Source: a virus. From it: a stretch of 44,739 bases of DNA. The DNA lies in the UHGV virus genome UHGV-0135379. One strand, written 5' to 3'. Position 1 is the first letter of the stretch; each line of letters starts with the position of its first letter. The notes below the pieces were generated by a model, which was given only the letters and a program-made list of their open reading frames with translations, was not told the DNA's origin and did no database searches. Below are positions 1,416-37,679 of this stretch, piece after piece. The position numbers were made by a program, and so were the translations under genes.

Positions 1416-1679
1416 CTATTCCAGAATATTCCTCACGTAATCCTGCAACATGAACACTTTCAGCCGCAGCTGCCGTACGCATTCAGCGTTCTGAACGTCG
1501 ATAGCTAAATCCTCGTCAGCGTCGCTACTCGGCGGTGCCAGCTTGCACGGAGGCTGCATCATCGTCGTATCCGGGGATGGAATTGGCGTTTGCGACGGCG
1601 CGGGATTTGAGCAGGACGCGAGCATCATCGAAAGTGCACACGCTGCGACCAGGCGTTTTAATGTACTTAACGACTTCAC
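1416..1679 (-). CDS. o-spanin (Rz1-like outer-membrane lipoprotein), GTG start
   Basis: Signal peptide with lipobox LASC, Pro-rich mature part, starts inside the i-spanin ORF in another frame. Confidence 0.6.
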   Translation of the reverse strand: MKSLSTLKRLVAACALSMMLASCSNPAPSQTPIPSPDTTMMQPPCKLAPPSSDADEDLAIDVQNAECVRQLRLKVFMLQDYVRNILE

Positions 1680-1911
1680 GGGTGATTACCTCGGTTTCGG
1701 TCTTGCCTTTTGAGTCGGCGGCGGCGGCCTTTGATTCGTCCTGCTGCTGCCGTTGTGTTTTCTTCGCTAACTCAGCCTGCGCTTTCTGCTGTTGCTGCGA
1801 AACGAGATTCGCCCGGCCTTCGCTCCAGCCGCTGCGATACTGGTAAATGCCGTGGGCGTAAGCCAGGATGATGAAACATGCTCCCGCTACGACAGTTGCT
1901 TTAAGATTCAT
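1525..1911 (-). CDS. i-spanin (Rz-like)
   Basis: N-terminal TM helix then charged Gln/Ala/Lys-rich periplasmic region; ATG with AGGGGA RBS; embeds o-spanin start. Confidence 0.65.
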   Translation of the reverse strand: MNLKATVVAGACFIILAYAHGIYQYRSGWSEGRANLVSQQQQKAQAELAKKTQRQQQDESKAAAADSKGKTETEVITREVVKYIKTPGRSVCTFDDARVLLKSRAVANANSIPGYDDDAASVQAGTAE

Positions 1912-2011
1912 GTTTCCCCTTTCTCGATAAGTAAAGCCCTGCCTTAAAGCAGGGCGCTAGTCCTTATCATTTAAACATAGAAACGGCGTAATCTCAGTAA
2001 ACCCGTTACTT

Positions 2012-2164
2012 TTTACACAAGCAATAGAGTATGGCCCTTCCGAACGCGTCAGCGTAACTACACTCAGGACTTACGTCCCGCTCCGTTACCTGCCCGCGCC
2101 GCGGTCGCTTGTTCATACTTCACAAGCTCAGGTGGAGCTTAGCACATTTTTGGTGAAAAGTCAA
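2012..2164 (+). repeat. Copy A of a ~150-bp non-coding element (perfect 51-bp core at 2099-2149)
   Basis: About 85% identity to 14230-14376 with a perfectly conserved core; no ORF; followed by an AT-rich tract. Confidence 0.8.
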
Positions 2165-2230
2165 CTATTCGAATAGTTTATTCCAACATTTACAATTGAG
2201 TGGAATAACCGGAATACATAAACAAATAGT

Positions 2231-2259
2231 TTGCGCACCCCAATATAATAGGGTACTAT
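2231..2259 (+). promoter_or_regulatory. Promoter TTGCGC-N17-TACTAT carrying palindrome AATAG-GGTA-CTATT (2247-2260); drives lipoprotein moron
   Basis: Near-identical 30-bp element also at 4374-4402; 17-bp spacer; about 30 nt upstream of ATG 2287. Confidence 0.6.
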
Positions 2260-2286
2260 TCATTCTATCGAACCGGGGAGGCCGTC

Positions 2287-2388
2287 ATGTTAGTCGTTAT
2301 TTCAGTAGTAATTGCAGTTGATGCGGTGATGTTTCTTTGGGCTTGTAGCGGTATTGGTGACATTGACACGGGTAATGGTGAACTATGA
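2287..2388 (+). CDS. Small hydrophobic peptide (33 aa), first gene of the lipoprotein moron
   Basis: ATG with GGGGAGG RBS directly downstream of promoter 2231-2259; stop overlaps next start (ATGA). Confidence 0.4.
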   Translation: MLVVISVVIAVDAVMFLWACSGIGDIDTGNGEL

Positions 2389-2729
2389 AATATATTAAAT
2401 TAGCAGTAGCAGGTGTTGTAGCCGTTTGTTTGAGTGGTTGTGTAAGGTCGTTGCCAGACCCGGCTTTACAGGTTTATCAGGCAGGGGATACAACGGCAAC
2501 ATGTAATCAGTTACTATCGAGAATCGCCACGACAAAACAAGCTCAAGCCAACGCTACGCACCGTGTTAATAAGCAAATAGGTACTAACGTTGTACTCGGT
2601 GTTACAGGCGCATTCCTGATTGTTCCGCTGTTCTTTATGGACACAGGCGCTGGGCCTTCTATGGACGAGATGACAGCCGGTAATCGTCTGTCGCAGTTAC
2701 AACAAACATACGACGAGAAATGCAAATGA
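2385..2729 (+). CDS. Lipoprotein of unknown function (114 aa); moron, candidate superinfection-exclusion protein
   Basis: Signal peptide with lipobox LSGC; plus-strand gene inside minus-strand late region; AT-rich. Confidence 0.7.
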   Translation: MKYIKLAVAGVVAVCLSGCVRSLPDPALQVYQAGDTTATCNQLLSRIATTKQAQANATHRVNKQIGTNVVLGVTGAFLIVPLFFMDTGAGPSMDEMTAGNRLSQLQQTYDEKCK

Positions 2730-2790
2730 CAAATAGTGTGATGTTTTATGTTGTTTTGTGGGTATCGGCTGCGGTTATCACCGCGATGTT

Positions 2791-2820
2791 CATATAAAAA
2801 TAAAGCCCCTTTCGGGGCCT
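2791..2820 (-). terminator. Rho-independent terminator after the Ig-like gene
   Basis: GC hairpin (GCCCC-TTTC-GGGGC) followed by a T-run on the minus strand. Confidence 0.55.
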
Positions 2821-2824
2821 CTTA

Positions 2825-3283
2825 TCATTCGGGCTTAATAACCTTCGCCGCTTTACTGAAGGCCTCTACGCCATCGGCATCGGTAACTTTAACGAAGTAT
2901 TCACCCACCGCGTTAACCGTCAGAGACAGAGCCTCTGCAGGGGCGTTTACCACTTCCTTACCGTCTTTGTACCAGGTCAGCGCGTATGGTGCTTTACCGG
3001 CCTTAACTTCGACAGTGATAGTCGCGCTGCCGTCTGTCAGTTCTGTGTCTTTCGGTTGTACAGAGAGATACACATCGCCTGCGTCCGCCAGATACGGAAT
3101 CTCATAGAGCATACCGGCCGCAGGCAGCGCAATGCCGGTTTTATCCGCAAACGGCATGTCGTCTACCGGTGTACCTAGTACACTTTCATCTTCAATAAAC
3201 ACCACGTTCTCACCAGAGCCAGACACGCGGGCGTACTGGACTACGCGACGCGACGGTACATCAGTTACTTTGAAAAAGCCCAT
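2825..3283 (-). CDS. Ig-like (Big-type) domain protein, probable virion accessory or decoration protein
   Basis: C-terminal Ig-like segment paralogous to 43598-43948 (shared APY..WYKD motif); ATG with AAAGGGGA RBS; terminator follows. Confidence 0.6.
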   Translation of the reverse strand: MGFFKVTDVPSRRVVQYARVSGSGENVVFIEDESVLGTPVDDMPFADKTGIALPAAGMLYEIPYLADAGDVYLSVQPKDTELTDGSATITVEVKAGKAPYALTWYKDGKEVVNAPAEALSLTVNAVGEYFVKVTDADGVEAFSKAAKVIKPE

Positions 3284-4329: not shown

Positions 4330-4373
4330 AAGCCCTCCTGTAGTATCGACAGTGTAACGCATAAAAATAATAT

Positions 4374-4402
4374 TTGCAGACACCAATATAATAGGGTACT
4401 AT
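4374..4402 (+). promoter_or_regulatory. Promoter TTGCAG-N17-TACTAT with AATAG-N4-CTATT box (4390-4403); drives the 63-aa moron
   Basis: Shares a 21-bp identical core with 2242-2262; correct spacing to ATG 4431. Confidence 0.6.
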
Positions 4403-4430
4403 TCAGTTATCGGAACGAGGAGATACATAA

Positions 4431-4622
4431 ATGTTATATTCTAAAGAATGGTATGAAATCATGGAATTATTCGAGAAGAACTGCAAGGGGCGCTTCCGCT
4501 TCGATCGTGAAACAAAAGAAATGTGGAAAATTGGTGCATACTATGAGAACGGTGAATGCAACGAATGGTTTAAAATGTATCTCGCGGGGTATATGGCGGG
4601 GCGAGCAGCGTACCTTAACTAA
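4431..4622 (+). CDS. Hypothetical 63-aa protein; moron with its own promoter and terminator
   Basis: ATG with GAGGAG RBS, promoter 4374-4402 upstream, hairpin plus T-run downstream; AT-rich; inserted between portal and head gene. Confidence 0.6.
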   Translation: MLYSKEWYEIMELFEKNCKGRFRFDRETKEMWKIGAYYENGECNEWFKMYLAGYMAGRAAYLN

Positions 4623-12858: not shown

Positions 12859-12889
12859 CTTCTGTCTCTCCTCTTGTTTGTGTAAATGA

Positions 12890-14229: not shown

Positions 14230-14376
14230 TTTACAATAGATTATGGCCCTTCCGAATGCCGGCAGCGACACTACACTCAGTGCTGACGCACCGCTCCGTT
14301 TCCTGCCGCACCGCGGTCGCTTGTTCATACTTCACAAGCTCAGGTGGAGCTTAGCACATTTCTTAGTAAAAGTCAA
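14230..14376 (+). repeat. Copy B of the ~150-bp non-coding element (perfect 51-bp core at 14311-14361)
   Basis: Same orientation as copy A; lies in the 470-bp divergent early intergenic region. Confidence 0.8.
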
Positions 14377-37309: not shown

Positions 37310-37416
37310 TCTTTAATCCTTTGGTTAAGAGGTTACTGGTTAAAGGAAATGCGCCAGACGGGAACCACCCGCTTTTCGTGTGCGACACTAGGCGCAAAAT
37401 TATTCTAACATACTAC

Positions 37417-37445
37417 TTGCACACCCTGATATAATAGCGTACTAT
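37417..37445 (+). promoter_or_regulatory. Promoter TTGCAC-N17-TACTAT with AATAG-CGTA-CTATT box (37433-37446); drives the 4-gene plus-strand island
   Basis: Same architecture as the moron and leftward early promoters; about 40 nt upstream of ATG 37488. Confidence 0.6.
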
Positions 37446-37487
37446 TCACTTACACCAACGATGTTATCTCAAATCAGGAGTTATGTT

Positions 37488-37679
37488 ATGACCGGTATCG
37501 CTATGTTCTTTTTAATTATTGTTGTAGGCGTTTATTTTATCCCGTTTTTTGTGGCCCATATGCGAAACCATAAAGCAAAGCTAGCGATATTCATGGCTAA
37601 CTTATTTCTCGGGTGGGTTCTGTTGCCGTGGGTATTCATTTTAATCTGGGCTTGTAACTCGAACGTGAAAGAGAAGTAG
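37488..37679 (+). CDS. Small 2-TM membrane protein resembling superinfection-immunity (Imm-type) proteins
   Basis: 63 aa from ATG at 37488 (AGGAG RBS); motif FIPFFVAHMRNH...LGW...ILIWAC; AT-rich; track ORF starts at 37461. Confidence 0.55.
   Translation: MTGIAMFFLIIVVGVYFIPFFVAHMRNHKAKLAIFMANLFLGWVLLPWVFILIWACNSNVKEK

What the first reader, a model, noticed from the sequence alone, without database searches (positions are those of the whole stretch)
2231..2729. Lipoprotein moron with a leader membrane peptide on the opposite strand of the late region
A 33-aa hydrophobic peptide and a 114-aa lipoprotein (lipobox LSGC) are encoded on the plus strand between head and lysis genes. They are driven by the shared operator promoter and the region is AT-rich. 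The phage already has an o-spanin lipoprotein, so this second lipoprotein is surplus to lysis. Comparable small lipoproteins in other phages block receptors or DNA entry, so this is a candidate superinfection-exclusion or host-envelope modifier.
Basis: partly seen in the sequence, partly recalled or inferred. Interest (0 to 1): 0.55.

Follow-up and report, generated by a model that had tools for sequence, protein, structure and literature searches.

The report
Phage accessory cassette encoding envelope lipoprotein
A virulent E. coli phage carries an optional, self-contained gene cassette for a membrane-anchored lipoprotein of a large uncharacterised family; where its relatives sit in other phages and mobile elements suggests, but does not show, that it blocks entry of competing phages.

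Summary
Window 2217-2821 (+) is a self-contained unit in a Kagunavirus genome (92% identical to phage Golestan over the first 4.3 kb): a promoter-like element with an AATAG-N4-CTATT palindrome, a 33-aa hydrophobic ORF, a 114-aa lipoprotein (lipobox LSGC) and a terminator. It lies between the spanin genes and a Hoc-like head gene on the opposite strand.

Only 11 of 181 related phage records carry the cassette. One relative has an empty slot; others have the same promoter with a methylase or endonuclease VII. In a relative whose lipoprotein is 82% identical the 33-aa leader is absent. The trailing ORF is kept there under purifying selection.

The lipoprotein belongs to an unnamed family (1,464 clusters, no Pfam or PDB match). 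Its members share two conserved cysteines and a near-invariant hydrophobic motif, N-x-x-LGVTGAFLIVPLFFMD.

Its closest relatives outside Kagunavirus sit in P22-like prophages in the interval where P22 keeps sieA. Others sit in a lambdoid immunity region and next to ICE transfer and defence genes. The same promoter class heads a T4-Imm-like immunity gene in this phage.

Superinfection exclusion is therefore the best-supported function (about 0.4), but it is untested. Many family members are ordinary chromosomal genes.

The parts
2217..2262 (+). Promoter-like element of the 'D2' class (TTGCGCAC...ATATAATAGGGTACTATTCA). A possible -35 is TTGCGC and a possible -10 is TACTAT with a 17-nt spacer. 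It is part of the cassette, not of the backbone.
   Evidence: Three + strand copies (2217, 4360, 37403), plus two D2-like sites that I read on the - strand near 12889 and 14038. It is absent from the empty-slot phage KMB36 and present ahead of other cargo in EM1 and LSPA1. It was not picked up by the sigma-70 consensus scan, so promoter activity is inferred.
2247..2260 (.). Palindromic operator-like site AATAGGGTACTATT (AATAG-N4-CTATT).
   Evidence: 11 matches in the window against 1.09 expected. The same palindrome sits in the spacer of the strong sigma-70-like promoters (TTGACA-N17-TATAGT) ahead of the replication genes. The fBC-Eco01 paper reported it as a PHIRE motif.
2287..2388 (+). 33-aa hydrophobic leading ORF with a Shine-Dalgarno sequence (GGGGAGG). 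Probably translated, but dispensable for the module.
   Evidence: It is annotated in Golestan (gp06) and fBC-Eco01. Among the phages compared, changes are few and conservative (0-3 nonsynonymous against 1-4 synonymous). It is absent from metagenomic relative L029, where the lipoprotein has its own ribosome-binding site and a GTG start. No equivalent was found in the 14 non-Kagunavirus homolog loci scanned.
2385..2729 (+). 114-aa lipoprotein. Signal peptide 1-18, lipobox LSGC, Cys19, Val at +2. The mature protein of about 95 aa has helix 40-72, a hydrophobic core 69-85 within the motif N68...D86, helix 93-112, and Cys40/Cys113.
   Evidence: PHROG 13472 at E 1.2e-44. Family alignments A1 and A3. 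AlphaFold2 mean pLDDT 68.5. pN/pS 0.20 against L029. Family statistics.
2726..2797 (+). Trailing 23-aa hydrophobic ORF (MTNSVMFYVVLWVSAAVITAMFI). Its ATG overlaps the lipoprotein TGA as ATGA.
   Evidence: It is conserved in L029 as MTNSLGFYAVLWVTAAVITGMFI. pN/pS is 0.13 in frame, against 3.25 and 1.43 in the other two frames. phiEc4 and K-02 carry a Trp-to-Arg change in it (my reading).
2802..2821 (.). G+C-rich hairpin AAAGCCCCTTTCGGGGCCTC, a terminator shared with the convergent Hoc-like gene. The T-run is good on the - strand and weaker on the + strand.
   Evidence: Annotated as a terminator on both strands in fBC-Eco01. In the empty-slot phage the backbone runs straight into this hairpin.
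37403..37679 (+). Sister unit, not part of the cassette: the same promoter class followed by a 63-aa Imm-like superinfection immunity gene (37488-37679). This gene heads an opposite-strand operon inside the tail genes.
   Evidence: Pfam PF14373 at E 1.6e-13, above the curated cut-off. PHROG 1039 'immunity to superinfection' at E 7.5e-23. Golestan gp22-gp19 annotation.
4360..4622 (+). Sister unit, not part of the cassette: the same promoter class followed by a 63-aa ORF (4431-4622) of unknown function, in a second variable slot between the portal and head-morphogenesis genes.
   Evidence: No Pfam or PHROG match. Golestan has only a 70-bp gap at this position, and fBC-Eco01 carries a different gene there.

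Best explanation
The region is an accessory ('moron'-type) transcription unit of a virulent Kagunavirus: promoter-operator, optional 33-aa membrane peptide, 114-aa lipoprotein, 23-aa membrane peptide, terminator. Steps shown by the sequence and comparisons: the ORFs, the lipobox, the translational overlaps, purifying selection on the lipoprotein and on the trailing peptide, presence or absence among relatives, and family membership. Steps inferred: (1) the unit is transcribed from the D2 element by host RNA polymerase and is co-regulated, through the shared AATAG-N4-CTATT site, with the replication genes and the Imm-like gene, not with the late genes. (2) The product is exported, lipidated at Cys19 and, lacking Asp at +2, sorted to the inner leaflet of the outer membrane. 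(3) The mature part is a periplasmic alpha-helical hairpin closed at its base by a Cys40-Cys113 disulfide. Its tip is the near-invariant hydrophobic motif LGVTGAFLIVPLFFMD, which inserts into a membrane or a conserved envelope component. (4) In the infected cell it alters the envelope so that DNA delivery by a second phage fails after adsorption. This would be a superinfection-exclusion function working like P22 SieA, T4 Imm/Sp or TP-J34 Ltp, and complementary to the phage's own Imm-like inner-membrane protein. The 23-aa peptide is proposed to be a small inner-membrane partner or modulator. The confidence of 0.4 applies to step 4; that this is a real, selected, envelope-targeted accessory cassette I hold at about 0.9.
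For: Cassette status: 11 of 181 related records carry it. The empty slot and the alternative cargo share exact junctions and the same promoter. GC is lower than in the flanks. Selection: pN/pS is 0.20 for the lipoprotein and 0.13 for the trailing ORF, while synonymous divergence (0.64 and 0.91) far exceeds that of the flanking Rz gene (0.18). The cassette therefore has its own history. Lipoprotein and topology: lipobox; +2 residue A, G or V in 116 of 116 family members; exactly two further Cys in 111 of 116, spaced 74-75 residues apart; a 17-residue hydrophobic core (mean hydropathy 2.45); flanking net charge +1.2 before and -2.8 after the core, which argues against a membrane-spanning N-out/C-in segment; a helix-loop-helix model. 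Context of relatives: three separate protein clusters at 38-42% identity lie directly after ejection-protein gene 16 in P22-like prophages, before mnt/arc/ant and the tailspike. This is the interval in which sieA lies. Another lies between N and cI in a lambdoid prophage. Others lie after TraH/TraG of an ICE beside DISARM/BREX-like genes, beside an integrase, in an integrase/IS islet, on a plasmid, and upstream of the primase and helicase genes among small hypothetical genes in Aeromonas T7-like phages. Co-regulation: the same promoter class heads the Imm_superinfect gene. The host lacks a close copy: no DNA-level match in 5,426 complete E. coli genomes.
Against: There are no functional data. 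There is no sequence or fold similarity to any known exclusion protein. In 80 species-representative genomes the immediate neighbours are mostly housekeeping genes with no consistent partner (examples). The family therefore probably has a cellular role, and the phage copy may simply supply that role. The same slot and promoter carry DNA-metabolism genes in relatives, so the position itself says nothing about function. Timing is unknown: the one RNA-seq study of a Kagunavirus placed the imm gene, together with DNA polymerase and methylases, in the class that peaked last. Exclusion proteins usually evolve fast, whereas this motif is almost invariant across phyla. The structure model has only moderate confidence, and low confidence (pLDDT about 50) over the key motif.
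Confidence: 0.4

Rival explanations
1. A captured envelope-maintenance lipoprotein. The family has a cellular role in diderm bacteria (membrane or cell-wall homeostasis, or assistance to a conserved envelope machine). The phage copy supplies that role to a host that lacks it. This would stabilise the infected cell, for example against premature lysis, lysis from without or envelope stress, without excluding other phages.
For: The family is very broad (1,464 clusters at E <= 0.001). It occurs in Proteobacteria, Planctomycetota, Nitrospinota, Omnitrophota, Deferribacterales and small-genome symbionts. Neighbours are mostly housekeeping genes. The motif is nearly invariant, as expected for a conserved cellular partner. 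E. coli has no close copy at the DNA level.
Against: This does not explain why the closest relatives repeatedly sit in exclusion or immunity intervals of prophages and beside defence genes. It also does not explain why this phage places the gene under the promoter class used for its imm gene.
Confidence: 0.25
2. A receptor-masking exclusion lipoprotein of the Llp/Cor/Rtp45 type. It would bind the periplasmic face of the outer-membrane protein used as terminal receptor and change its surface loops. Adsorption of further virions would then fail, on infected cells and on lysis debris.
For: It is a virulent siphophage with a predicted periplasm-facing outer-membrane lipoprotein carrying a disulfide, as for T5 Llp and Rtp45 (PMC9586334 as listed; PMC12685063). 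There is a weak PHROG hit to Cor over the signal peptide only.
Against: There is no homology to Cor or Llp. The gene is not next to the receptor-binding genes. Kagunaviruses are described as depending on surface glycans through tailspikes, and no protein receptor was named in the passages I read. Homologs occur in phages with unrelated receptors and hosts (P22-like, Aeromonas T7-like, Alcaligenes lambdoid) and in non-mobile contexts, which does not fit a receptor-specific binder.
Confidence: 0.12
3. A lysis accessory or regulator that acts with the neighbouring spanins, for example by modulating outer-membrane disruption or lysis timing.
For: It lies next to Rz/Rz1. It is a lipoprotein with a hydrophobic segment, and small membrane peptides are co-encoded.
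Against: It is on the opposite strand, with a promoter class shared with replication and immunity genes, not with late genes. Relatives without it keep the same spanin, holin and endolysin set. Homologs sit in prophage intervals where P22 keeps its prophage-expressed genes (sieA, mnt), where a lytic factor would be harmful. The holin and endolysin genes are several kb away.
Confidence: 0.08
4. An entry-exclusion-like factor aimed at conjugative transfer or other contact-dependent delivery, not at phages.
For: One homolog lies directly after TraH/TraG_N in an ICE, where F-like plasmids keep the exclusion genes traS and traT (my own knowledge). Another is on a plasmid.
Against: There is only one ICE example, and the genes that follow are defence cargo. 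A virulent phage with a short latent period gains little from blocking conjugation.
Confidence: 0.05

Closest known systems
P22 SieA (inner-membrane superinfection exclusion protein)
   Same: Homologs of the lipoprotein occupy the gene 16 to gene 9 accessory interval of P22-like prophages, where sieA lies. The proposed action is the same: a block of DNA delivery after adsorption.
   Different: No sequence similarity, and no hit to the SieA PHROG family (phrog_7745). SieA is a 164-aa inner-membrane protein with several predicted transmembrane segments, encoded on the complementary strand. This protein is a lipid-anchored 114-aa hairpin, and in the prophages its gene runs in the same direction as gene 16.
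T5 Llp, T1/phi80 Cor and Rtp45 (exclusion lipoproteins of virulent and temperate siphophages)
   Same: A small phage-encoded lipoprotein with a disulfide, predicted to face the periplasm from the outer membrane. It is carried by a siphophage and is surplus to lysis.
   Different: Not homologous. Larger (about 95 aa mature, against roughly 60 for those proteins). Not adjacent to the receptor-binding gene. It has an invariant hydrophobic motif and a wide cellular family, which those proteins lack. Their mechanism is receptor masking, which fits poorly here.
T4 Imm (Pfam PF14373) with Sp
   Same: This phage has an Imm-family gene under the same promoter class. T4 likewise pairs an inner-membrane Imm with a periplasmic factor, Sp (my own knowledge).
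   Different: The lipoprotein is not an Imm or Sp homolog. Any functional pairing with the Imm-like protein is conjecture.
Classical lambdoid morons (for example lambda bor, HK97 gp15)
   Same: Own promoter and terminator, deviating base composition, presence or absence among close relatives, and an envelope-directed product.
   Different: The carrier here is a strictly virulent phage. The promoter is a phage-wide class that also serves core genes. There is no match to the Bor family.
PHROG 13472 (unknown function)
   Same: Full-length match at E 1.2e-44. This is the only library family that contains the protein.
   Different: It carries no annotation. The cellular breadth of the family is not visible from a phage-only library.

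Membership tests
Bacterial lipoprotein (Lgt/LspA/Lnt substrate) | N-terminal signal peptide with a basic n-region and a hydrophobic h-region, ending in a lipobox [LVI][ASTVI][GAS]C | tested here: met
   MKYIK-LAVAGVVAVC-LSG-C19. My simple lipobox pattern matched 67 of 78 family ORFs called in genome loci, and Cys19 is invariant in 116 of 116 aligned members. SignalP and LipoP were not available.
Bacterial lipoprotein (Lgt/LspA/Lnt substrate) | Actual lipidation and signal-peptidase II cleavage | not testable with these tools
   Needs globomycin sensitivity, palmitate labelling or mass spectrometry.
Outer-membrane-sorted lipoprotein (Lol pathway, Enterobacteria) | No Asp at position +2 after the lipidated Cys | tested here: met
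   Val20 in the phage protein; A (53), G (45) or V (18) and never D in 116 family members. The internal hydrophobic segment could still hold the protein in the inner membrane, so localisation is unproven.
Moron / accessory transcription unit | Own promoter and terminator flanking the gene or genes | tested here: inconclusive
   A conserved promoter-like element and a terminator hairpin bracket the ORFs. The element fails a strict sigma-70 consensus scan, and no transcript data exist.
Moron / accessory transcription unit | Present or absent among otherwise syntenic close relatives, with clean junctions | tested here: met
   11 of 181 records carry it. Empty slot in KMB36; methylase in EM1; endonuclease VII in LSPA1, at the same junctions.
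Moron / accessory transcription unit | Base composition differs from the surrounding genome | tested here: met
   GC 0.39-0.45 against 0.51-0.57.
Cor / Llp / Rtp45 receptor-masking exclusion lipoproteins | Sequence or profile similarity to the family | tested here: not met
   Only a weak match (E 0.29) of the signal peptide to the Cor PHROG family. No Pfam match, no PDB sequence match and no fold match at E <= 0.001.
Cor / Llp / Rtp45 receptor-masking exclusion lipoproteins | Gene adjacent to the receptor-binding protein gene | tested here: not met
   The gene lies between head and spanin genes. The tail fibre and tailspike genes are more than 15 kb away on the Golestan map.
SieA family | Homology to SieA (phrog_7745); inner-membrane protein with several transmembrane segments | tested here: not met
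   BLASTP E 6.0. P22 SieA matches phrog_7745 at E 9e-109, whereas the lipoprotein has no hit to that family at E <= 1. It has a single 17-residue hydrophobic core.
Imm_superinfect (PF14373) | Match to the Pfam model above its curated cut-off | tested here: not met
   No match for the lipoprotein. The separate gene at 37461-37679 does match (50.8 bits against a 27.9 cut-off).
Spanins (o-spanin or unimolecular spanin) | An outer-membrane lipoprotein paired with an i-spanin (embedded, overlapped or adjacent gene), or a lipoprotein with a C-terminal transmembrane domain, in the lysis cassette | tested here: not met
   A separate overlapped Rz/Rz1 pair exists at 1416-1911. This gene is on the other strand and has 28 residues after its hydrophobic segment. 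It also has cellular homologs.
Known anti-phage defence systems (PADLOC-DB) | Match to any model in the library | tested here: not met
   No family at E <= 1.
Unnamed lipoprotein family (PHROG 13472 plus cellular homologs) | Lipobox Cys, the motif N-x-x-L-G-x-x-G-x-F-x-x-V-P-x-F-F-M-D, and two Cys 74-75 residues apart | tested here: met
   All 13 invariant columns of the 116-sequence alignment are present in the phage protein. PHROG match at E 1.2e-44. Profile search statistics.

The most novel reading that the evidence does not exclude
The family is a new, widespread class of lipid-anchored exclusion factors. A disulfide-stapled periplasmic hairpin uses its invariant hydrophobic tip to jam a conserved step of trans-envelope DNA delivery. 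Virulent phages, prophages (in place of SieA), ICEs and plasmids would deploy it interchangeably, so one mechanism would link phage superinfection exclusion with conjugative entry exclusion. In Kagunavirus it would work together with a 23-aa membrane peptide.
Probability: 0.2. Interest if true: 0.75.

Novelty: new variant of a known kind. Interest (0 to 1): 0.5.

Why it matters
If the exclusion function is confirmed, it would add a new protein family to the short list of envelope-level phage exclusion factors. It would be unrelated to Cor, Llp, SieA or Imm, and present in more than a thousand sequence clusters across diderm bacteria. It would also give a handle on an envelope step that podoviruses, siphoviruses and possibly conjugative systems share. 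The cassette is carried by several Kagunavirus isolates characterised against clinical or multidrug-resistant E. coli, some explicitly proposed for therapy. Such a gene could affect how phages in a cocktail interfere with each other. Even if the function is cellular, the near-invariant motif marks an unstudied, widely conserved envelope lipoprotein. The slot anatomy is also useful for phage engineering: a promoter plus exchangeable cargo, inserted between a terminator and a conserved restart element.

Tried and rejected
No Pfam, NCBIfam or PADLOC family was found for any of the three ORFs.

A PDB sequence search with the family profile gave only chance hits at E > 0.6.

Two AlphaFold2 runs gave mean pLDDT 59.6 and 68.5. 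Foldseek against PDB and BFVD then returned only generic alpha-hairpins at E > 0.5. The afdb50 library was unavailable.

Rfam found nothing in 1900-2900.

I looked for a conserved gene partner of the family in 80 species-representative genomes. There is none beyond clade-level synteny (a PepA-type aminopeptidase in 9 loci and N-terminal-methylation-motif proteins in 6).

I looked for the leading and trailing peptides next to non-Kagunavirus homologs. They are absent.

I tested whether the 149-aa gene beside the Citrobacter prophage homolog is a diverged SieA. It is not.

DNA-level searches of complete E. coli genomes with the cassette and with the prophage homolog found nothing.

I considered a true transmembrane topology for residues 68-86. 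I rejected it as less likely because of the two invariant, fixed-spacing cysteines, the 17-residue core containing two Gly and one Pro, and the flank charges that run against the positive-inside rule. One Pirellulales homolog has a C-terminal Cys-x2-Cys...Cys-x2-Cys tail, which looks like a zinc ribbon and leaves some doubt.

I considered a virion role because of the HSE2 'structural protein' label. The paper reports no proteomics.
Full report
IDENTITY OF THE WINDOW. The window is a nearly complete genome of a virulent siphophage of genus Kagunavirus (Guernseyvirinae). Over 1900-2900 it is 98% identical to Escherichia phage VB_EcoS-Golestan, and it is collinear with that genome in reverse orientation. 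In window coordinates the late structural genes run on the - strand. The replication genes run on the + strand.

THE OBSERVATION. Both ORFs are present as described. The 33-aa ORF (2287-2388) has a GGGGAGG ribosome-binding site. Its stop overlaps the ATG of the 114-aa ORF (2385-2729) as ATGA. The 114-aa product starts MKYIKLAVAGVVAVCLSGC, a textbook lipoprotein signal peptide with lipobox LSGC and Val at +2. The flanks are the overlapped Rz/Rz1 spanin pair (1416-1911, -) and an Ig-domain Hoc-like head decoration gene (2825-3283, -). GC drops to 0.39-0.45 here, against 0.51-0.57 around it.

A third ORF was missed. ORF 2726-2797 encodes 23 aa (MTNSVMFYVVLWVSAAVITAMFI), and its ATG overlaps the lipoprotein stop, again as ATGA. 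A G+C-rich hairpin at 2802-2821 closes the unit.

THE PROMOTER. A 46-nt element at 2217-2262 recurs at 4360-4405 and 37403-37448 on the + strand. I also read D2-like versions on the - strand near 12889 and 14038. Its core palindrome AATAG-N4-CTATT occurs 11 times in the window against 1.09 expected. The same palindrome also sits in the spacer of strong sigma-70-like promoters (TTGACA-N17-TATAGT) ahead of the replication genes. The fBC-Eco01 paper had listed the motif as a PHIRE-predicted promoter.

The cassette therefore shares a probable operator with the replication genes and lies on their strand. It does not share one with the late genes. Promoter activity and timing are inferred. The element does not pass a strict sigma-70 scan. 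The one Kagunavirus RNA-seq study placed the imm gene, together with DNA polymerase and methylases, in the class that peaked last.

The copy at 37403 heads a 63-aa gene that matches Pfam Imm_superinfect (E 1.6e-13, above the cut-off) and PHROG 'immunity to superinfection'. In Golestan this gene is followed by an exonuclease and a polynucleotide kinase.

ACCESSORY STATUS. Of 181 related phage records, 11 carry the cassette, with a lipoprotein that is 99-100% identical. An alignment of the slot shows that window 1905-2216 is almost invariant backbone, even in Salmonella Jerseyvirus LSPA1. In the empty-slot phage KMB36 this backbone runs straight into the terminator hairpin. In EM1 and LSPA1 the same promoter element precedes a DNA adenine methylase or endonuclease VII. 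The slot is thus a promoter-plus-cargo exchange site between the terminator of one late operon and a conserved element ahead of the spanin genes. This meets the usual criteria for a moron, except that promoter function is unproven.

WHICH PEPTIDE IS THE PARTNER. A metagenomic Kagunavirus contig (L029) has a lipoprotein that is 82% identical, in the same slot and behind the same promoter. It lacks the 33-aa ORF; its lipoprotein has its own ribosome-binding site and a GTG start. It keeps the trailing ORF as MTNSLGFYAVLWVTAAVITGMFI.

Between the window and L029, pN/pS is 0.20 for the lipoprotein. For the trailing ORF it is 0.13 in frame, against 3.25 and 1.43 in the other two frames. Synonymous divergence (0.64 and 0.91) is far above that of the neighbouring Rz gene (0.18). 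The lipoprotein and the 23-aa peptide are therefore a selected two-gene module whose history is older than, or separate from, the backbone. The leader shows only conservative changes among the phages that have it, but it is dispensable. Neither peptide accompanies homologs outside Kagunavirus.

THE PROTEIN FAMILY. Pfam, NCBIfam and PADLOC give nothing. PHROG 13472 (unknown function) matches at E 1.2e-44. Homology searches find an unnamed family: 1,047 clusters at 90% identity scored E <= 0.001 in one database, and 1,464 representatives at 50% identity did so in another. The family spans Proteobacteria, Planctomycetota, Nitrospinota, Omnitrophota, Deferribacterales and small-genome symbionts such as Rickettsiella and Wolbachia.

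In a 116-sequence alignment the invariant positions are Cys19, Asp35, Cys40, Asn68, Leu71, Gly72, Gly75, Pro81, Phe84, Asp86, Arg101, Leu105 and Cys113. The consensus of the central segment is (T/K)GKNVALGVTGAFLIVPLFFMD. After the lipobox Cys, 111 of 116 members have exactly two cysteines, 74-75 residues apart. The +2 residue is A, G or V and never D. The hydrophobic core is 17 residues long (mean hydropathy 2.45). The twelve residues before it carry a net charge of +1.2, and the twelve after it -2.8.

AlphaFold2 with the deep alignment gives helices 40-72 and 93-112 at pLDDT 72-88 and an unresolved tip at pLDDT about 50. Fold and PDB searches are uninformative.

My reading is inferred. The protein would be a lipid-anchored periplasmic alpha-hairpin, closed at its base by a Cys40-Cys113 disulfide. 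The invariant hydrophobic segment at its tip would dip into a membrane or dock on a conserved partner. Outer-membrane sorting is predicted from the +2 rule but is not certain.

CONTEXT OF RELATIVES. The closest relatives outside Kagunavirus (38-42% identity) are mostly on mobile elements.

- Three distinct clusters (P0004, P0007, P0173) lie directly after ejection-protein gene 16 in P22-like prophages of Citrobacter, Kluyvera and an unidentified host. They come before mnt/arc/ant and the tailspike. This is the interval where sieA lies in P22-like prophages.
- No SieA homolog was identified in these intervals, and the lipoprotein is unrelated to SieA.
- Other members lie between N and cI in an Alcaligenes lambdoid prophage and after TraH/TraG_N of a Seleniivibrio ICE, next to DISARM/BREX-like genes.
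- Others lie beside an integrase/AlpA island, in an IS-rich region, in an integrase/IS islet between queA and tgt and on a plasmid.
- Ten Aeromonas T7-like phages carry distant homologs upstream of the primase and helicase genes, among small hypothetical genes.

Against this, members in Nitrosomonadales and in another gammaproteobacterium sit among ordinary genes. The immediate neighbours in 78 of the 80 species-representative loci are mostly housekeeping genes with no recurrent partner. Complete E. coli genomes have no DNA-level homolog.

INTERPRETATION. The cassette is real, selected and envelope-directed, and it is optional for the phage. The best-supported function is superinfection exclusion at the envelope, most likely a block after adsorption. 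Three lines of indirect evidence support this. Relatives sit where P22-like prophages keep sieA, in a lambdoid immunity region and beside defence genes. This phage puts the gene under the promoter class of its own Imm-like gene. And carriers of the family use unrelated receptors, which argues against receptor masking. I put this at about 0.4.

The main rival (0.25) is that the phage has captured a cellular envelope-maintenance lipoprotein and uses it for that role. Receptor masking (0.12), a lysis accessory role (0.08) and conjugative entry exclusion (0.05) are less likely, for the reasons given under each. A virion role has no support.

COMPARISON WITH KNOWN SYSTEMS. The cassette works like a moron and, if the hypothesis is right, like SieA, Imm/Sp or Ltp. 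It is not a member of any of those families, nor of Cor, Llp, Rtp45 or Bor. All sequence-based membership tests failed. The published exclusion lipoproteins Llp and Rtp45 bind the periplasmic face of their phage's outer-membrane receptor. The distribution of this family makes that mechanism unlikely here.

NOVELTY AND SCORE. I rate it a new variant of a known kind: a phage accessory gene for an envelope lipoprotein, from an uncharacterised and widespread family with a distinctive architecture and a co-selected micro-peptide. Interest is 0.5. It is a well-defined, cheaply testable candidate with suggestive but purely contextual evidence.

Noticed in passing
window 2022-2164 and 14234-14376 (conserved block 1912-2216): A roughly 143-nt element occurs twice (81-92% identity) and is almost invariant across Kagunavirus and Jerseyvirus. 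The two copies differ by compensatory changes in one hairpin (GGAC..GTCC against GTGC..GCAC). On the - strand both copies are preceded by a conserved TTGACT-N15-TGC-TAAGCT promoter-like site. The copy at 2 kb is followed by a hairpin (1955-1936) and then Rz. Each copy stands at the head of one of the two long late-direction gene blocks. This suggests a structured leader or a processive-antitermination element (like HK022 put or lambda pR'-tR'). Rfam has no match, and the folding z-scores are weak (-1.25 and -0.92).
   Followed up: partly
window 37403-37679 and downstream to about 39900: An opposite-strand operon lies inside the tail genes. It is headed by an Imm_superinfect gene (63 aa from 37488) and followed by a 376-aa HTH plus metallophosphoesterase protein. 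By Golestan annotation a polynucleotide kinase and a hypothetical gene come next. It is driven by the same promoter class as the lipoprotein cassette.
   Followed up: partly
window 4360-4622: A third promoter-plus-cargo island lies between the portal and head-morphogenesis genes. It holds a 63-aa ORF (MLYSKEWYEIMELFEKNCKG...) with no Pfam or PHROG match. Golestan has only a 70-bp gap at this position, and fBC-Eco01 has a different gene annotated as a sliding clamp.
   Followed up: partly
window 1416-1679 (-): The o-spanin is annotated in Golestan and fBC-Eco01 as a 47-48 aa product starting at M(M)QPPCK, which lacks a signal peptide. The full ORF from the GTG at 1679 (87 aa) begins MKSLSTLKRLVAACALSMMLASC, with a lipobox, and overlaps Rz. 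This is the expected form of an overlapped Rz1, so the database start appears to be truncated.
   Followed up: partly
L025 (CP088689.1, E. coli strain C16EC0033 'plasmid' pC16EC0033-2, 44,086 bp, circular): This record, deposited as a plasmid of a blood isolate, shows over the 12.3 kb I examined the same gene order as the phage, including the lipoprotein cassette, and its size (44,086 bp) matches a Kagunavirus genome. It may reflect a carrier state or co-purified phage DNA.
   Followed up: no
window-wide: 2247, 4390, 12889, 14038, 17892, 17936, 20688, 25014, 37433: The AATAG-N4-CTATT palindrome marks two promoter classes: a strong sigma-70-like class ahead of the replication genes, and the TTGCRCAC...TACTATTCA class ahead of accessory and small early-type genes. 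The fBC-Eco01 paper attributes the motif to a phage RNA polymerase, but none is annotated in Golestan. A phage HTH regulator binding this site seems more likely.
   Followed up: partly
window 2287-2388: The 33-aa leader contains FLWAC, which resembles a degenerate lipobox (L-W-A-C). It is followed by an acidic 13-residue tail. It has no basic n-region, so a tiny second lipopeptide is only a remote possibility.
   Followed up: no
L110 (phage vB-Eco-KMB36), next to the empty slot: The head-morphogenesis gene of this relative is annotated as carrying an inserted intein. The gene is about 1.97 kb, against about 1.04 kb in Golestan.
   Followed up: no
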